In this document: positions 6,001 to 24,000 of the stretch, one piece after another
Numbering within the stretch: the stretch's first letter is position 1
How the letters are laid out: every line of letters starts with the position of its first letter
Virus record (IMG/VR): IMGVR_UViG_2534682329_000010
Direction: 5' to 3' (one strand)
DNA length: 37,934 nt
From: a virus
Lineage: Duplodnaviria; Heunggongvirae; Uroviricota; Caudoviricetes
Program-made: the position numbers

Positions 6001-9000
6001 TGTTTTTTGCATTCTCCAGCACTTCACCGGCATCCGGACCGTCCGGTATTTCCAGCTCAGCCGTCACGGAATAGTCATTAATAATGGCGCTTTTCACCGT
6101 CACAAAATCCGTCAGCGGACGAATTTCATTAGCATTCAGCCGCGCACTGACCGCGTCCAGCAACGCCTCGCTGGCAGTGCCATTTCCTTCACGGGACAAC
6201 ACGTAGACATCCACCTCCCCCGCACGCCCGTGTTCTTCCGGACCACAGGCATCAGCATCCAGGACATCTTCATCAGCAGAACGGGCATGAAAGCGATAGG
6301 CATTGCGGGCACCTGCGGTATTCAGTTGCGACCAGGACAGCTGGATGCGTTCGCGAAAAGCATCGTCCTCTTCCATAATCGCATCCGTCGGAGGCACGGC
6401 ATCCGGATTTGCCGGAACAACCACCATACGTTCGACATTGAACGCCGCACCAATCTGATCGAGATCGGCCTTCTGTGCACTTGCCAGAAAAACAGCCCGC
6501 ACGGCATCATTCACCCGCTGAAAAGCCAGGGTAAGCTGAAAGGCTGTCACTTCGCCCTGTTTGTAAGCCGGGTCGGATTCCACCAGTGCATCAAATTCAG
6601 GATCCAGTTCGCGCAGACGTGCCAGCCAGGCCCCGAAAATCACCGCCGCATCAGGCACCACGATGGCATCCGGTACGGGCAAATCCGAAAGATTAATCAC
6701 ATCATAACTTTCTGCCATAAACGGTTATTCCTCCTGTTGATACCTGTGTACCGGTTTCCGTATTCGTCCCCGTGATATCCACCACGCACCCGGCCTCATC
6801 TTCCGGAAACGTCACGATCACTTTTGACACTTTCAGCCGGGGCTCCCAGCGTGCCAGCGCCGTCGCCGTGGCAGCAATTATGCGCAGCCTCAGCAGGTCA
6901 TCCCGGGGAGAGTCCAGCAATTCAAAAAGATCGCTGCCGTAATCCCTGACCAGAACACGGCTTCCCACTGGCGTGTTCAGAATATCGCTGACTGACTGGC
7001 GCAGATGCACCGCACCGGACAGACGCTTCCCTGTCCGGCAGTTCACACCATTCATGATTATTTTTTTCCTGATCCGGTACCAAAATAATCCGGCCCTGTT
7101 TTATCACCGGATTTTTTGTCTGATTTACTGGCGTTTTTGATTTCAGCCACCAGATTAAACGTGAAGGTAAAGCCTGAAGAAGAGAGGGAAAACGCCAGTG
7201 ACTCCACGAGCCAGCGGCGATCTTCCCGCTGACCAAATCCGGATGTCACCACGCCGGATTCGGCGGTCATGGCAACATATGAAGGACGGCACGGCCCTGT
7301 CAGCGTCATTTTCCGGCTGTTACGTTGCGCCTGTGTTTTTTTCGATTTTGCCTGTTGTTCAGCCGTTTCCTTTTCCGGCTGCGTGTACGGACTGGTTACA
7401 GACGAGCCGTCATGCTCCACGGTTGCTGTTTTGGTTCGCCCGTCAGCCTTGTCAAAATAACGAACCGTGATTTTTTCTTTCTTCTTTTTTTTATCTCCAC
7501 CGCCGCTAGAGCTCCCCCGTTCACCTTCCTGATAACTCCAGGATGACACAACGGAAGGTGTCAGCGTCACGGTCTTCAGGGGTGCGCCCGATACGGTGGT
7601 TCCGGCACCCTGCTCCAGAAACAACCAGTAACCTCCGGCAGGTTTACTGACGGCGTTATACGTCCGGGCAAGGCGAGACAACAGGCTGGCATCCGATTCT
7701 GCCACCTGATCCACATGAGTAATGCGGATCCCCGCCAGCTTCTCCGCCACCCAGGCCTTCAGTCCGTTTTCCGTGGCAACGGTTTTCACCAAATCACCCA
7801 GCGTGAGATTATCCCAGCTTCGTGTTTTCTGATTCAGCACATCACCGGACTGCTTTTCCGCATTCATGGGGGCAGCGGTAGCATAAATCTCGATCTGCCG
7901 CGGCGGGCCGCTGCTGCTCACGCCGCACACAACAAACCAGCCCTTGTCCACCAGATTACCGTTAAACCCCAGCGCCACCCGCAGACGCGCCCCCTTTGTC
8001 GGCAGGGGCAGTGTTTCAGAAAGCAGCGTGATTTTCAGTTCATCAGATTTGGCGGTGGCTCCGCCGTAATCCGTCAGGGTGATATCCACAAGATAACGGG
8101 CCAGCACCCGCGTGATATCCCGCCCTTCAGCTGTCACCCGATACGCCGGGCAGAATTCCCGGACGGTCGTGGCAATGGTTTCCTGTTTTTCCTCACTTTT
8201 CAGGGACTCCTGATACGCGGCATTTATTGCCTGCAGCTGTTCGGATAATGACGTCATCATCTCCTCCCTTAATCCCACAGACTGTATGGCGACTCAGACA
8301 CCTGTTGTGTGATTTCAGGCAACACAATGTGGATCCCCGCAGGATACACCGCGCCCTTCTCTGCCAGCCCATGATTGGCCTCCAGCACAAGAGTGAGCAC
8401 GGCAGACAGATTTTCCGTGCCGTAATGCGTGGCGCAAATCGCATCAAGCACATCCCCGTCACGGGTTATCCAGATCGTCGGCATAATGTTTCAGCTCCAG
8501 ACTCCACTTTTTGTTACGGTGCCCACCACCAGGTAAAAAGCGGTCGGTGGAATCAGAAAAACGCTCCACCACCCACCATCCCAGCACATCACCTTCTCCA
8601 CTGACCAGCAGTTGCGGCTCAGCCTTATTCGCCAGGTCATACAGCGTGTTCACCGCCTCCGTCCCCGACTTCCCCAAAAAGGCGTGCGATTCCCCTTCAA
8701 GGCGGACGGTTCGCCCGTTTTTCCCGGTGTACTGCAGCAGACTCTGCAGCCCGATACGCGCCTGCTCGCTCCAGGTCCACCCAGCCTCACGGGTCAGCTG
8801 GTTATATGCCGTGGTATCCACGGAAAAGGCGAAATCCCCCAGCATCAGCATGACTCTGGCATCTGCAGCACCACGAAGATAACTGTTGTCACGCTGAAGG
8901 CTGTCTTCAGCGAGAGCAATAACCGAACCCACACTCACCAGACACTTCCTCCATCCCACAACGCATTATTACCACTGAAGGCTGGGTTGTTTTTCGTCAT

Positions 9001-21000: not shown

Positions 21001-24000
21001 CCACCAGCGTCATACCTGCAGACATAAATGTGGTGGTACGTTTTGAAGCCAAGGAAAAACCATCGCCTTCGCCATCGATATCTTCAGGAAATCGGTCGTA
21101 ATCAGTCAGCGCCACACATTTAAAATCAGAGGATGACATGACATTGATGGAAGGCCAGCCGATTTTCAGAAAGCTGCCCGACAGAAAATATTTGTCATGA
21201 ACGTTGTTATCGTTACGGCGTGGGCTGAGGCGTTTTCTGACCTCCGGGCTGCAACGAAATGTTCTTGCCAGGCGCTTTTTGGAGTGCTCCTGCGCCTTAT
21301 CCTGTGTCATCTGCACCAGCAAAAAGTCAGACGGATCGCAGACAATGTTATAAACCACCCAGCCATCAATCAGGCCGTTAGTCTTGCCCGTACGGGCAGG
21401 ACCACCAAAAACAACCGCATCAAACTCACGGGACGACAGGCAGTTCATGGGGTCAATCACATACGGTGCAACCATCGGATCCCACGGAACAGAGTTGCCA
21501 CCAGATGTAGGGACTCGCATAAATTTTTGTACCGCTTCGGCAACAGGCATTCTGCGCGGCGCTTTAATTAACTGGCCCGTATCCAGTTTCAACGATCTGG
21601 CGGTCGCCTGCACAGGCATTATTCGTCCTCCTGATTTTCCTCCTCTGTATCTTCCTGTTTGCTGTCATCTGCCACCCGCCGCGCAATTTCGTCACGCAGA
21701 TCATCAATAATGCTTTGCACCCGCATGACAGCCGAAGGCTCAAGAGCGCAATCGCGTTCAAGAATATCGGGGAGGGTTTCCAGAACCTGCACCATAGCCT
21801 TTGCCATTTCAGCAAATTCACGGGCGACATCAGACGCAGGGATCAGTTCTCCGACCTCCTGTTCGAATTTCAGGCGCTCACGTTCTGACTGATACCAGGC
21901 TTTTCGGTCATGGGGATCCATTTCTCCTTCAGCGACAGGCGGTGGCAACTTCATTAATTCTGCCAGAATATCAGTAAGTTTATACAGCTTGAGGTTACTC
22001 TCATGCCCACCCGCTGTTCGGATATTTTTGATTCTTGATGCGACAGTCTGTCGGTGCACACCCGACAGCGCAGCTAACTGGCTGACATTAAGAACAAGGT
22101 GTTTCAATTCCTTATCCACTTACCCCTCCAGTGATGAACAAAAAATAAGCATTTTCGACACCAGCTATTTTTTAACCTTTCATTATCAACAAATTACAGT
22201 GGTGGTGATGAACGATGAAAATGCAAAAATTTGGCGATTTCTGCGCATCCGTATCCCCTCGGTATTCCAAATTCCCAGGAAGGACCCGTGAAAATGGGAG
22301 CAATTATCATTTGCACACACTCTAACACCTGCATTATCGCAGCCCCTCACACTGAAGGGCTGCTGTAATGCCTGTTACTCAGTAACAACTGCGCCTTCCG
22401 GTAATTTCATACAGGCAAATACCGGACAACCAGGATGACGATCATCTTCTGTTGCTTCCAGCATTGACTCACCAAACCACTCCGTCGTGGCGCGACCATC
22501 AGCTGCTTTGTAGTGGATCAACTACTGGTTTTCGCCATCCGCACACTGCGCGCGGGCTTTAACCTCACCCCATTCATCACTGATGCGCATCTCCACCAGT
22601 TGAGACGACTCAAACTTAAACGGAGCAGCATCAGCACCAATTACAATCAGTTTGTTTTCTGTTTTTTCCATCATCGCCTCCTGATATCGAAGCCCGTCTC
22701 CGCACCGGGCACTGATCAACATTTGAGTATTCGCGGAGACAGAAAGAATTTATTTTATTGAGTAGCCACAAACACAGAATTTCATGCTTTCCTGACGCTG
22801 ATGTATCCTTCATTTTTCAGCAAAATATTCTGCTCTTACAGGCAATCAGTTCTGCAGACACTGCCGAACACCGTCGACAATTTCACAGACCTGAGAAACT
22901 GTATCGAAAAGCTGGCGCGCCTTATCAAGGCTAACGCATCCCACCGATAAAAAAGGCACCAGTACCGCTACCAGTGCCCATTTCGCCGCCGTTCGCGACA
23001 TTCTGTGTGTCCAGTGTTTTCGGCTCATATCACCACCAACGCACAGCCCAAATCAGAACAGCGACCGCCACAAGGCGAATTGCAAAGGCCGCAGCCCTTG
23101 TCAAATCAAGGCTCGCGGGAGTTTCCACTTCAATACCTTTCATAATGGACAACCTCAAAAAGAATCTTTTATACTTTCCCACGAGGATTTTCTCCGTACT
23201 CACTACTCACAATTTCCTCTTTGACGTGAAAACTAAAAACCCCGGACTGTTCCAGCAGCCGGGGTTTTTGCTATCTGATGCTGTACCCCTTACTTTCGCT
23301 CATCGTAACCCCAGAAAAGAGCCTGAATGAGTTGAGGGTGTTCAGCACTTCAGCGTCAGTTTTTAAACTGCTACTCGCTCTTTCATCCAGCCGTAGACAA
23401 ACGACTCGTTGGCCTCGCGTTTTTCTGCCAGCTCCAGATAGCGGTCACCCTGCGTGCAATTCAGCGCCTTCAACATCACCAGTTCGCCGTCTTTGCCGCG
23501 TTTTTGCAGATAAGTCCGTAGTGCATTAATCGTGCGGGGGCCGATACGCCCGTCTGCGTCCATATCCGGGAACAATTTGCCTTGCAGGTTGAAAACGTTC
23601 AGCCAGCGTTGGAGCATTTTCGATGCCACGGACGGCCCCATATTCACGCCGGTATCACACAACTCTGCGGCAATATCAGGGGATAATGCGGCGACCTGGT
23701 CGAAACGTGGCCCGAACCAGTAATCCGCCTCGAGTATTTCCAGCGCCTGCCCGCGCGTCAGGTCACGCATATCGCCGCGATATCCGTGAGCGCGGGCGAC
23801 TTTTTCCGTAATACCCCATTTTGTCGCCCCGCCTTTATCGTCCGGATGATTGACGTAGCCGCCCTCTTTTCCGAGGATTTCATCAAAAATGACGTCCTTT
23901 GATTTCATCTCAGTGCCTCAACAATGGAAAGATTCTTGTGACGTTACCGCGCGCGCGTATCACCAGCACGCAGAACAGCAGATTAAAAAACACTTCCAGC

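What the first reader, a model, noticed from the sequence alone, without database searches (positions are those of the whole stretch)
7058..22119. Mosaic virion module with non-canonical gene order
Packaging and portal genes are lambda-like (Nu1/A/W/B), the capsid is a single 696-aa protease-scaffold-capsid fusion, and the tail is P2/Mu-like and contractile. The order V-sheath-tube-E-T-U-X-D-W-J-I-H-G differs from P2, where V/W/J/I/H/G precede the sheath and tube.
Basis: partly seen in the sequence, partly recalled or inferred. Interest (0 to 1): 0.5.

Follow-up and report, generated by a model that had tools for sequence, protein, structure and literature searches.

The report
Lambdoid prophage virion genes, permuted P2-type tail
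This is the intact virion-building gene block of an E. coli prophage: a Gifsy-2-type head joined to a P2-type contractile tail whose gene order looks odd next to P2 but is standard for a widespread, little-studied group of enterobacterial prophages, so it is essentially ordinary.

Summary
On the minus strand the window encodes terS, a gpA-type terL, a W-like adaptor, a lambda-family portal, a 696-aa ClpP-scaffold-capsid fusion, decoration, FII-like, neck, V, sheath, tube, E/E', tape measure, U, X, D, W, J, I, H and G. Two corrections apply: W-J-I-H-G lie at 3489-7055, outside the given span, and terS is DUF1441, not Nu1.

None of it is new in kind.
- **Capsid fusion:** it meets curated family NF045540 and matches the published Gifsy-2 fused protease/coat gene.
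- **Head-tail combination:** lambda-type heads on P2-type tails occur in several sequenced phages.
- **Gene order:** the identical order is in Citrobacter phage Chris1, Hafnia phage yong2 and every one of 91 related loci apart from Serratia L018, across about ten enterobacterial genera.

A Serratia sister clade with the same head keeps the P2 order. The window order is therefore one derived block move, with W-J-I-H-G placed after D. The V|sheath joint sits in a conserved terminator-like hairpin that the sister clade carries twice.

Mosaicism is real. The 7.3-kb head cassette (14977-22279) alternates with a true lambda head on a 99.7% identical tail.

Verdict: a new member of a known kind, of low interest.

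The parts
21619..22119 (-). Small terminase subunit, DUF1441 type (Gifsy-type, not Nu1 family)
   Evidence: PF07278 E 1e-45 and phrog_141 E 6e-70. 51% aa identity to Gifsy-2 terS.
19502..21619 (-). Large terminase subunit, lambda gpA family
   Evidence: GpA_ATPase plus GpA_nuclease. 72% aa identity to Gifsy-2.
19287..19511 (-). gpW-like head-tail adaptor (74 aa)
   Evidence: phrog_118 E 5e-18. It sits between terL and portal, as W does in lambda. No Pfam hit.
17767..19278 (-). Portal protein, lambda family
   Evidence: PF05136 E 3e-89. 55% aa identity to Gifsy-2.
15720..17810 (-). Tripartite ClpP-like protease / scaffold / major capsid protein fusion (696 aa)
   Evidence: NF045540 at 935 bits against a cut-off of 475. 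phrog_133 matches full length. CLP_protease covers residues 73-202 and Phage_capsid_4 covers 385-693. The AASMA and MIHKP motifs are visible in the translation. 49% identity to the Gifsy-2 homologue over 98% of its length.
15698..15717 (-). Terminator-like hairpin plus T-run just after the capsid gene
   Evidence: Consensus scan only.
15318..15692 (-). Head decoration / cement protein
   Evidence: PF09956 E 2e-25 and phrog_122.
14962..15339 (-). FII-like head-closure (Hc1) protein. Its 3' end (about 14976) is the left breakpoint of the head cassette.
   Evidence: PF05354 and phrog_82. Breakpoint from blastn.
14257..14940 (-). Neck1 / tail-completion protein, first gene of the tail module
   Evidence: phrog_27 E 8e-25. 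99% identical to the lambda-headed NY1601 prophage.
13671..14240 (-). Conserved protein of unknown function that always lies between Neck1 and V
   Evidence: phrog_1072 E 3e-47. It holds the same position in ep3, 705R4, Valp1 and the Serratia clade.
13058..13693 (-). Baseplate spike, P2 gpV homologue
   Evidence: TIGR01644 above its cut-off. PF04717. 33% identity to P2 V over 92% of its length.
13042..13059 (-). Conserved terminator-like hairpin plus T7, overlapping the V stop codon. This is the V|sheath rearrangement joint.
   Evidence: Scan. Present in nearly all of 42 junction variants, with compensatory stem changes, and also after V in the P2-order sister clade. Its 3' flank matches the pre-sheath hairpin of the sister clade.
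11550..13019 (-). Tail sheath (489 aa from the ATG at 13019)
   Evidence: Phage_sheath_1 plus Phage_sheath_1C. 36% identity to P2 FI over residues 161-495.
11047..11553 (-). Tail tube, P2 FII family
   Evidence: PF04985 E 2e-20.
11013..11030 (-). Terminator-like hairpin plus T-run between tube and E
   Evidence: Scan. A hairpin sits at the same position in the sister clade.
10568..10995 (-). Tail assembly chaperone E (10696-10995) with a -1 frame E' extension running to 10568. The candidate slip site is GTTTTTA at 10743-10749.
   Evidence: PF10109. Frame analysis. The -1 ORF and a T5/T6 run are conserved in 89 of 89 related loci.
8935..10593 (-). Tape measure protein (552 aa)
   Evidence: Assigned by position between E/E' and U. 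33-49% identity to the equivalent genes of Chris1, yong2, 705R4 and Valp1. No Pfam family.
8459..8959 (-). P2 gpU-like tail protein
   Evidence: PF06995 E 1.5e-29.
8269..8484 (-). Tail protein X
   Evidence: PF05489 E 4e-15.
7058..8278 (-). Baseplate hub, P2 gpD family
   Evidence: PF05954. 37% identity to P2 D. Its stop codon lies 2 nt before the W start codon.
6702..7055 (-). Baseplate wedge, gpW/gp25
   Evidence: PF04965 E 2e-15.
5813..6718 (-). Baseplate J
   Evidence: PF04865 E 8e-25.
5256..5816 (-). Baseplate / tail protein I
   Evidence: PF09684 E 2e-39.
4034..5272 (-). P2 H-like tail fibre
   Evidence: 38% identity to P2 H over 35% of its length. PGAP names the 99-100% identical homologue 'phage tail protein'.
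3489..4055 (-). Tail fibre assembly protein (G-like)
   Evidence: 29% identity to P2 G over 80% of its length. PGAP names it 'tail fiber assembly protein'.
1180..3465 (-). Second fibre, with a lambda Stf-type N-terminal domain
   Evidence: PF08400 E 1e-59 and PF03406.
598..1176 (-). DUF4376 protein, last gene of the late block. A hairpin at 571-593 follows it.
   Evidence: PF14301. Hairpin seen in the fold of 480-610.

Best explanation
This is the late (virion) gene block of an intact lambdoid temperate myovirus prophage of the Chris1/yong2 clade.

How it most likely works:
- **Transcription (inferred).** A Q-type antiterminator (27719-28114) and a lysis cassette (23363-24612) lie upstream. 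The whole block is probably read as one antiterminated transcript that passes through three small terminator-like hairpins, after the capsid gene, after V and after the tube gene.
- **Packaging and head.** DNA is packaged by a lambda-gpA-type terminase through a lambda-family portal. The capsid is built from a Gifsy-2-type tripartite precursor (ClpP-like protease, scaffold, HK97-fold coat) that cleaves itself. A trimeric cement protein is then added.
- **Tail.** A P2-type contractile tail is attached. It comprises the V spike, D hub, W-J-I wedges, sheath, tube, E/E' frameshift chaperones, tape measure, U and X.
- **Gene order.** It is the P2 order after one block transposition. The ancestor had V-[W J I H G]-[sheath tube E T U X D]. 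In this clade the W-G block now follows D, which puts the host-range genes at the distal end.
- **The new joint.** The V|sheath joint lies in a terminator-like hairpin. In the P2-order sister clade that hairpin exists in two near-identical copies, one after V and one before the sheath gene. This suggests recombination at those repeats.
- **Head exchange.** The head cassette (14977-22279) is exchangeable as a unit with a true lambda head.

Shown here: gene identities, gene order, the distribution of the order, the cassette breakpoints and hairpin conservation.
Inferred: the transcription model, capsid processing, the polarity of the rearrangement and its mechanism.
For: - **Gene identities:**
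- **Head affinity:** Gifsy-2-like, with terL 72%, portal 55%, fusion 49% and decoration 38% identity. The fused protease/coat gene is documented for Gifsy-2 (Effantin et al. 2010, as cited in PMC12315714).
- **Tail affinity:** P2-like at 24-44% aa identity and not Mu-like.
- **Same full order elsewhere:** Chris1 and yong2 and 91 of 92 loci.
- **Sister clade:** Serratia rubidaea L018 plus eight IMG/VR contigs L103-L110 carry the same head at 62-78% identity (terS to capsid fusion), with the tail in P2 order.
- **Further outgroups with P2 order:** P2, ep3, vB_EcoM-705R4 and Valp1.
- **Hairpin after V:** conserved with compensatory changes.
- **Joint structure:** in L103 the hairpins after V and before the sheath share the stems GACCCGC/GCGGGT. 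The 17-mer TTTTTTTATGCCTGGAG that follows the pre-sheath hairpin in L103 also follows the post-V hairpin in Chris1.
- **E/E':** the -1 ORF and T-run are conserved in 89 of 89 loci.
- **Head cassette swap:**
- **Upstream genes:** Q, holins and endolysin.
- **Viability:** Chris1 is published as a transmissible phage (title cited) and yong2 is deposited as a complete phage genome. The arrangement therefore makes viable virions.
Against: - No experimental data exist for this prophage, so induction, contractile morphology and capsid processing are all untested here.
- The terminator-like hairpins come from a consensus scan whose total count (28) is not far above the shuffle mean (19.8, sd 4.6). Only the post-V hairpin has comparative support.
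- The recombination-at-hairpins mechanism explains the V|sheath joint. It does not explain how the W-G block was re-inserted after D, because no matching hairpin is seen at the D|W joint.
- The polarity of the rearrangement rests on outgroup parsimony, not on a rooted phylogeny.
Confidence: 0.88

Rival explanations
1. The tail descends from a Mu-type tail. On this reading the sheath-first order (sheath, tube, chaperone, tape measure, hub, then wedges and fibres) is inherited from Mu-like phages, not produced by rearranging a P2-type module.
For: Apart from V, the order equals the Mu order: sheath-tube-chaperone-TMP-N-hub-gp45(V)-gp46(W)-gp47(J)-gp48(I)-S-U.
Against: - tblastn of every window tail protein against the Mu late region gives no hit at E 1e-3 except in the fibre genes.
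- The same proteins hit P2 at 24-44% identity.
- The proteins match P2-named families: Phage_P2_GpU, Tail_P2_I, Phage_tail_X, TIGR01644 phage_P2_V.
- V lies upstream of the sheath, not between hub and wedge as in Mu.
- The closest sister clade has the P2 order.
Confidence: 0.03
2. The arrangement is a one-off: a recent chimera, an assembly artefact or a decaying prophage remnant peculiar to this genome.
For: - Only 3 of 5426 complete E. coli genomes carry the whole 15-kb stretch at 80% coverage or more.
- The prophage is a patchwork of two NY1601 prophages.
Against: - Identical order in 91 of 92 independent loci from Citrobacter, Enterobacter, Scandinavium, Pantoea, Rouxiella and others, and in two sequenced phages.
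- All ORFs are intact and tightly spaced.
- The E/E' frameshift signal is preserved.
Confidence: 0.03
3. The permuted order (V-sheath...D-W-J-I-H-G) is the ancestral state of the lambda-headed P2-tailed lineage. On this reading the Serratia clade's P2 order is a secondary reversion or was acquired by exchange of a tail module.
For: - The permuted clade has far more sampled members: 151 IMG/VR hits against 8-9.
- No rooted phylogeny was made.
Against: - All more distant relatives examined keep V-W-J-I before the sheath: P2, ep3, vB_EcoM-705R4 and Valp1.
- Serratia tail proteins are uniformly 41-71% identical to the window's (apart from the tape measure, 30-36%) and the head genes terS to capsid fusion are 62-78% identical. 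This argues against a foreign tail.
- The hybrid structure of the V|sheath hairpin joint fits derivation from a two-hairpin ancestor.
Confidence: 0.07
4. The block is a domesticated tailocin or contractile injection system rather than part of a phage.
For: PGAP labels the hub 'contractile injection system protein, VgrG/Pvc8 family'.
Against: - A full packaging and head module sits immediately upstream in the same orientation.
- Lysis genes and a Q antiterminator are present.
- Replication and immunity genes lie in the 96-99.8% identical early region of the NY1601 prophage.
- Relatives are deposited as phages.
Confidence: 0.02

Closest known systems
Citrobacter phage Chris1 (ON041214) and Hafnia phage yong2 (MZ516527), unclassified Caudoviricetes
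   Same: Identical gene content and order from terS to the tail fibre gene. aa identity is 44-84% to Chris1 and 42-78% to yong2. Both have the same ClpP-capsid fusion, the same hairpin after V and lambdoid early genes.
   Different: - Their hosts are different genera.
- Fibre ends differ. Chris1 has an invertible fibre segment with a DNA invertase, whereas the window has an extra Stf-type fibre plus DUF4376.
- Their cargo differs (ars operon in Chris1) and so do their early regions.
Salmonella phage Gifsy-2 head module (tripartite capsid gene; Effantin et al. 2010, Virology 402:355)
   Same: terS (DUF1441 type), gpA terL, a small gene between terL and portal where the window has its W-like adaptor, lambda-family portal, roughly 690-aa ClpP-scaffold-coat fusion and decoration protein, all in the same order. 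aa identity is 38-72% for these except the small W-position gene, which gives no tblastn hit.
   Different: Gifsy-2 continues with a lambda-type non-contractile tail (Z, U, V, G/T, H, M, L, K, I, J). The window continues with neck genes and a P2-type contractile tail.
Bacteriophage P2 tail module (Peduoviridae)
   Same: Homologues of V, W, J, I, H, G, FI, FII, E/E', T, U, X and D are present. tblastn detects V, W, J, I, H, G, FI, FII, X and D at 24-44% identity. E and U are recognised by P2-named Pfam families, and T is assigned by position only. The -1 frameshift chaperone is conserved.
   Different: - The order is permuted: P2 has V-W-J-I-H-G, then FI-FII-E-T-U-D, in two Ogr-activated operons.
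- P2's X lies far upstream, beside the lysis genes.
- The head, packaging and regulation genes are unrelated to P2.
- The sheath has about 160 extra N-terminal residues.
Lambda-headed, P2-tailed myoviruses: Escherichia phage vB_EcoM-705R4, Vibrio phage Valp1 (and the HK97-type-fusion Iiscvirinae such as vB_EcoM-ep3)
   Same: A lambda-family terminase and portal head module is followed by Hc1, Neck1, phrog_1072, V and a P2-type tail including U-X-D.
   Different: - These keep the P2 order V-W-J-I-fibres-sheath...D.
- Their capsid genes are lambda C/D/E-type, or in ep3 an S78-protease/HK97 fusion, not the ClpP fusion.
Bacteriophage Mu tail gene order
   Same: Sheath and tube come first, then chaperone, tape measure and hub, then wedges W/J/I, with fibre and fibre-assembly genes at the distal end.
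   Different: There is no detectable protein similarity outside the fibres. In Mu the V homologue (gp45) lies between hub and wedge, not upstream of the sheath.

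Membership tests
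Gifsy-2-type head module (lambda-family packaging plus tripartite capsid gene) | Single ORF fusing a ClpP-like protease, a scaffold segment and an HK97-fold coat protein | tested here: met
   NF045540 at 935 bits (cut-off 475). ClpP domain at 73-202 and capsid domain at 385-693. 49% identity to the Gifsy-2 protein over 98% of its length.
Gifsy-2-type head module (lambda-family packaging plus tripartite capsid gene) | gpA-family large terminase and lambda-family portal, with a small adaptor gene between them | tested here: met
   PF05876, PF20454, PF05136 and phrog_118.
Gifsy-2-type head module (lambda-family packaging plus tripartite capsid gene) | Autoproteolytic removal of the protease and scaffold parts, leaving a mature C-terminal coat protein | not testable with these tools
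   Needs virion mass spectrometry or N-terminal sequencing. Only Ser/His-type motifs (AASMA, MIHKP) are visible in the sequence.
P2-type contractile tail module | Full protein set: V, W, J, I, sheath FI, tube FII, E/E', T, U, X, D | tested here: met
   Pfam and NCBIfam hits above cut-off for all except T, which is assigned by position. tblastn to P2 gives 24-44% identity for V, W, J, I, FI, FII, X and D; E, U and T give no tblastn hit to P2.
P2-type contractile tail module | Programmed -1 frameshift producing E+E' upstream of the tape measure | tested here: inconclusive
   An overlapping -1 ORF and a T5/T6 run are conserved in 89 of 89 loci. Frameshifting itself was not demonstrated, and GTTTTTA is not a textbook X XXY YYZ heptamer in the E reading frame.
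P2-type contractile tail module | P2 gene order: V-W-J-I-H-G upstream of FI-FII-E-T-U-D | tested here: not met
   The window order is V-FI-FII-E-T-U-X-D-W-J-I-H-G.
Peduoviridae (P2-like phages as a taxon) | P2-type head and packaging genes (Q, P, O, N, M, L) and Ogr/Cox-type regulation | tested here: not met
   No tblastn hit of any window head protein to P2. Regulation is lambdoid, with a Q antiterminator. The prophage is therefore not a member, although its tail works like a P2 tail.
Mu-like tail | Protein homology to Mu L, M, gp41-48 | tested here: not met
   No hits at E 1e-3 except in the fibre genes.
Chris1/yong2-like lambdoid myoviruses (informal clade) | Collinear terS-terL-W-portal-ClpP/MCP-deco-Hc1-Neck1-phrog_1072-V-sheath-tube-E-T-U-X-D-W-J-I-H | tested here: met
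   Identical order, at 42-84% aa identity to Chris1 and yong2, and in 91 of 92 related loci.
Lambdoid prophage | Q antiterminator, then a lysis cassette, then one co-oriented late block; CI/Cro-type immunity and O/P-type replication genes | tested here: met
   Q-like phrog_79, RusA, two holins and an endolysin upstream. The early region is 96-99.8% identical to the NY1601 prophage, which is annotated with Cro/CI, replication protein P and DicB.

The most novel reading that the evidence does not exclude
The permutation may be a selected rewiring of a contractile-tail operon rather than a neutral scramble. Recombination between duplicated terminator hairpins moved the wedge and fibre genes to the distal end of the late transcript, where fibre cassettes, invertases and extra fibres can be swapped freely. 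The spike gene V stayed behind in a head-neck transcription unit closed by its own conserved hairpin. If so, intergenic hairpins would act both as expression punctuation and as portable recombination joints, and also as moron entry points, as seen in Rouxiella L017. That would shape module order in temperate myoviruses.
Probability: 0.12. Interest if true: 0.35.

Novelty: new member of a known kind. Interest (0 to 1): 0.17.

Why it matters
Its practical value is for annotation and comparison.
- It shows that 'lambda/Gifsy head plus P2 tail' prophages form a large, coherent and still unclassified clade across Enterobacterales, with its own fixed gene order.
- Synteny-based prophage callers and taxonomists should not treat this order as aberrant.
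- It gives a clean natural example of two kinds of modular evolution in one element. One is a head-cassette swap between identical tails within a single strain background. The other is a single block transposition whose joint maps to a repeated terminator hairpin.

It opens no long-standing question and contains no new protein family or mechanism.

Tried and rejected
- **Coordinate transfer.** My first Pfam call used coordinates carried over from the NY1601 annotation. It failed because of a 1-nt indel, so I re-ran it with the window's own ORFs.
- **yong2 literature.** Searches found no paper describing that phage.
- **Chris1 paper.** The primary paper (J Hazard Mater 2023) is not held. Only its citation was seen, so I could not confirm virion morphology from text.
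- **Effantin et al. 2010.** The paper could not be opened. The processing site of the Gifsy-2 precursor is therefore cited only through PMC12315714.
- **PICI paper.** The helper-embedded PICI paper turned out to be irrelevant to the fusion gene.
- **PDB sequence search.** A search with the fusion protein returned only cellular ClpP structures and no solved capsid relative.
- **tRNA scan.** It found none in the window, unlike both NY1601 prophages.
- **Mu ancestry.** Considered and rejected.
- **Hairpin after V in ep3.** I looked for one and saw no convincing terminator.
- **Heavy tools.** I did not use the large protein-database searches or structure prediction. Every gene already had a confident family assignment.

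Full report
**What is there.** All long ORFs from 598 to 22119 lie on the minus strand, tightly packed. Pfam, PHROG and NCBIfam scans give the following order in the direction of transcription.
- Head: terS (21619-22119, DUF1441/phrog_141), terL (19502-21619, lambda gpA ATPase plus nuclease), a 74-aa W-like adaptor (19287-19511), a lambda-family portal (17767-19278), a 696-aa ClpP-scaffold-capsid fusion (15720-17810), a cement/decoration protein (15318-15692) and an FII-like head-closure protein (14962-15339).
- Neck: Neck1 (14257-14940) and a conserved phrog_1072 protein (13671-14240).
- Tail: V (13058-13693), sheath (11550-13019), tube (11047-11553), E (10696-10995), tape measure (8935-10593), U (8459-8959), X (8269-8484), D (7058-8278), W (6702-7055), J (5813-6718) and I (5256-5816).
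- Fibres: H (4034-5272), G (3489-4055), a second Stf-type fibre (1180-3465) and a DUF4376 protein (598-1176).

Three corrections apply.
- W-J-I-H-G lie outside the span given.
- terS is not in the Nu1 family.
- The tail proteins are P2-like (24-44% identity where tblastn detects them). They show no similarity to Mu except in the fibres.

**Context.** The DNA is an E. coli prophage. The region 7058-22119 is 99.5% identical to a prophage next to prfC in strain NY1601. Only 3 of 5426 complete E. coli genomes hold the entire stretch, and 15 records match some part of it at 90% identity or more. Upstream of terS the window has an endolysin, two holins, a low-GC group of unknown genes, an anti-repressor and a Q-like antiterminator beside RusA. 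The early region is 96-99.8% identical, in blocks, to a second NY1601 prophage annotated with Cro/CI, replication protein P and DicB. This is a lambdoid genome layout in which the late genes are normally read as one Q-antiterminated transcript. That transcription model is an inference from established lambda biology.

**The capsid fusion is known.** The 696-aa protein matches NCBIfam NF045540, 'ClpP-like prohead protease/major capsid protein fusion protein', at 935 bits against a cut-off of 475. It covers PHROG 133 end to end. It is 49% identical over 98% of its length to the Gifsy-2 protein. [quoted passage not shown] '. The whole terS-to-decoration block is Gifsy-2-like, at 38-72% identity for every gene except the W-like adaptor, which gives no hit.

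**The head/tail combination is known.**
- Escherichia phage vB_EcoM-705R4 and Vibrio phage Valp1 carry lambda-type heads: terS, gpA terL, W, portal, protease C, D and E. These are followed by Hc1, Neck1, the phrog_1072 protein, V and a P2-type tail.
- vB_EcoM-ep3 (Iiscvirinae) has the same layout, with an S78-protease/HK97 capsid fusion.
- All three keep the P2 order V-W-J-I-fibres-sheath-tube-E-T-U-X-D.

**The permuted order is the norm for a large clade.**
- Citrobacter phage Chris1 and Hafnia phage yong2 have exactly the window's order from terS to the fibres, at 42-84% aa identity.
- A search with the V protein found relatives in 12 GTDB species genomes (Citrobacter x4, Enterobacter, Scandinavium x2, Pantoea, Rouxiella, Serratia and two unnamed Enterobacteriaceae). 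It also found 151 IMG/VR contigs, of which 80 were kept.
- tblastn mapping of all window proteins onto these 92 loci showed the same order wherever the contig reaches. There was a single exception.
The group is unclassified, though, and I found no comparative description of it.

**Polarity and mechanism of the rearrangement.**
- The exception, Serratia rubidaea L018, and eight further IMG/VR contigs found with its V protein (L103-L110) carry the same Gifsy-type head (62-78% identity, terS to capsid fusion). Their tail proteins are related at 41-71% identity (tape measure 30-36%) but are arranged V-W-J-I-fibres-sheath-tube-E-T-U-X-D.
- P2, ep3, 705R4 and Valp1 serve as further outgroups. The simplest reading is that the head-tail pairing predates the rearrangement, and that one block transposition moved W-J-I-H-G behind D.
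- The resulting order equals Mu's except for the position of V.
- Directly after the V stop codon lies a GC-rich hairpin plus a T7 run (13042-13059). It is kept in nearly all of the 42 junction sequence variants, with compensatory stem changes. Examples are GACCTGC/GCAGGT, AACCCGC/GCGGGTT and AACCAGC/GCTGGTT. It also follows V in the Serratia clade, where W comes next.
- In Serratia-clade locus L103 a second hairpin with identical stems (GACCCGC/GCGGGT) precedes the sheath gene. The 17 bases after that hairpin, TTTTTTTATGCCTGGAG, are the same as those after the post-V hairpin of Chris1.
- The V|sheath joint thus has V's 3' end on one side and the sheath leader on the other, fused within the repeated hairpin. 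This points to recombination between the two hairpin copies (inference).
- The model does not explain re-insertion of the W-G block behind D. That joint is only 2 nt long and has no hairpin.

**Real mosaicism.**
- Window 1-14976 is 99.7% identical to the NY1601 zinT-locus prophage. Its head genes are canonical lambda: Nu1, gpA, W, portal, S49 protease C, D, E, FI and FII. The same head type is seen in L020.
- Window 643-22987 is 99.4% identical to the prfC-locus prophage of the same strain.
- The two resident prophages encode identical tube, E, tape measure, U, X, D, W, J, I, H and G proteins, with the same WP accessions.
- The exchangeable unit is therefore the 7.3-kb head cassette 14977-22279. 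Its breakpoints lie at the last few codons of the FII-like gene and about 160 bp upstream of terS.
- In complete E. coli genomes the tail is more often found without the Gifsy-type head. Most of the 95-99% identity matches cover only window 7058-14976 (query positions 1-7919), whereas 3 records cover the whole stretch.

**Other supporting details.**
- A -1 frame ORF overlaps the end of E and runs to 10568, across the tape-measure start. A T5 run (GTTTTTA, 10743-10749) lies in the overlap. Both features are present in 89 of 89 related loci, and the Serratia version has P2's T6G. This fits the P2 E/E' chaperone frameshift, which was not demonstrated here.
- Two more terminator-like hairpins follow the capsid gene and the tube gene. 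They rest on the scan alone, apart from a hairpin at the same post-tube position in L103.

**Verdict.** It is a new member of a known kind, with a modest point of interest in the hairpin-delimited block transposition and the head-cassette swap.

Noticed in passing
L001 (NZ_CM135959.1 4108012-4157074) and L101 (same record, 1949000-1997000): E. coli NY1601 carries two prophages whose tube, E, tape measure, U, X, D, W, J, I, H and G proteins are identical (same WP accessions). One has a Gifsy-type head and the other a lambda-type head. The window is a recombinant of the two: the early region and tail of the zinT-locus prophage, and the head of the prfC-locus prophage.
   Followed up: yes
window 598-3465 (minus strand): Downstream of the P2-type H/G fibre genes lies a second fibre gene with a lambda Stf-type N-terminal domain (PF08400) and fibre repeats, plus a DUF4376 protein. 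This myovirus tail may therefore carry two fibre systems. The relatives differ here: Chris1 has an invertible fibre segment with a DNA invertase.
   Followed up: partly
window 8935-10593; L001 18878-20536: RefSeq/PGAP names the tape measure protein 'AAA family ATPase'. It has no Pfam family and sits in the tape-measure position, so the name looks like a misannotation.
   Followed up: partly
L017 10630-12070 and 14040-20250 (Rouxiella sp. T17): In this relative, mostly opposite-strand cargo genes are inserted between V and sheath and between tube and E. They include a cytidine-deaminase-like protein, a cupin, a DUF1737 protein and several unknowns. These are the two intergenic sites that carry terminator-like hairpins in the window.
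   Followed up: partly
window 24706-26631: A low-GC stretch (0.36-0.41, against about 0.54 in the virion genes) lies between the anti-repressor and the holins. It holds three ORFs that match only PHROGs of unknown function. The NY1601 prophages have tRNA-Thr and tRNA-Gly genes in this interval, but the window has no tRNA.
   Followed up: partly
window 1-561 (+) and 26874-27455 (-): The ORF6N-domain gene at the prophage end and the anti-repressor gene upstream of the lysis cassette look like paralogues. Window 26876-27691 aligns at 77% DNA identity to the ORF6N region of L101.
   Followed up: no
window 11550-13019: The sheath protein has about 160 N-terminal residues with no counterpart in P2 FI; the P2 match covers residues 161-495 only. 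The extension is shared with Chris1 and yong2.
   Followed up: no
window 571-593: A GC-rich hairpin (AACCCCGG...CCGGGGTT) sits between the convergent DUF4376 gene and the ORF6N gene. It is probably the terminator that ends the late block.
   Followed up: no
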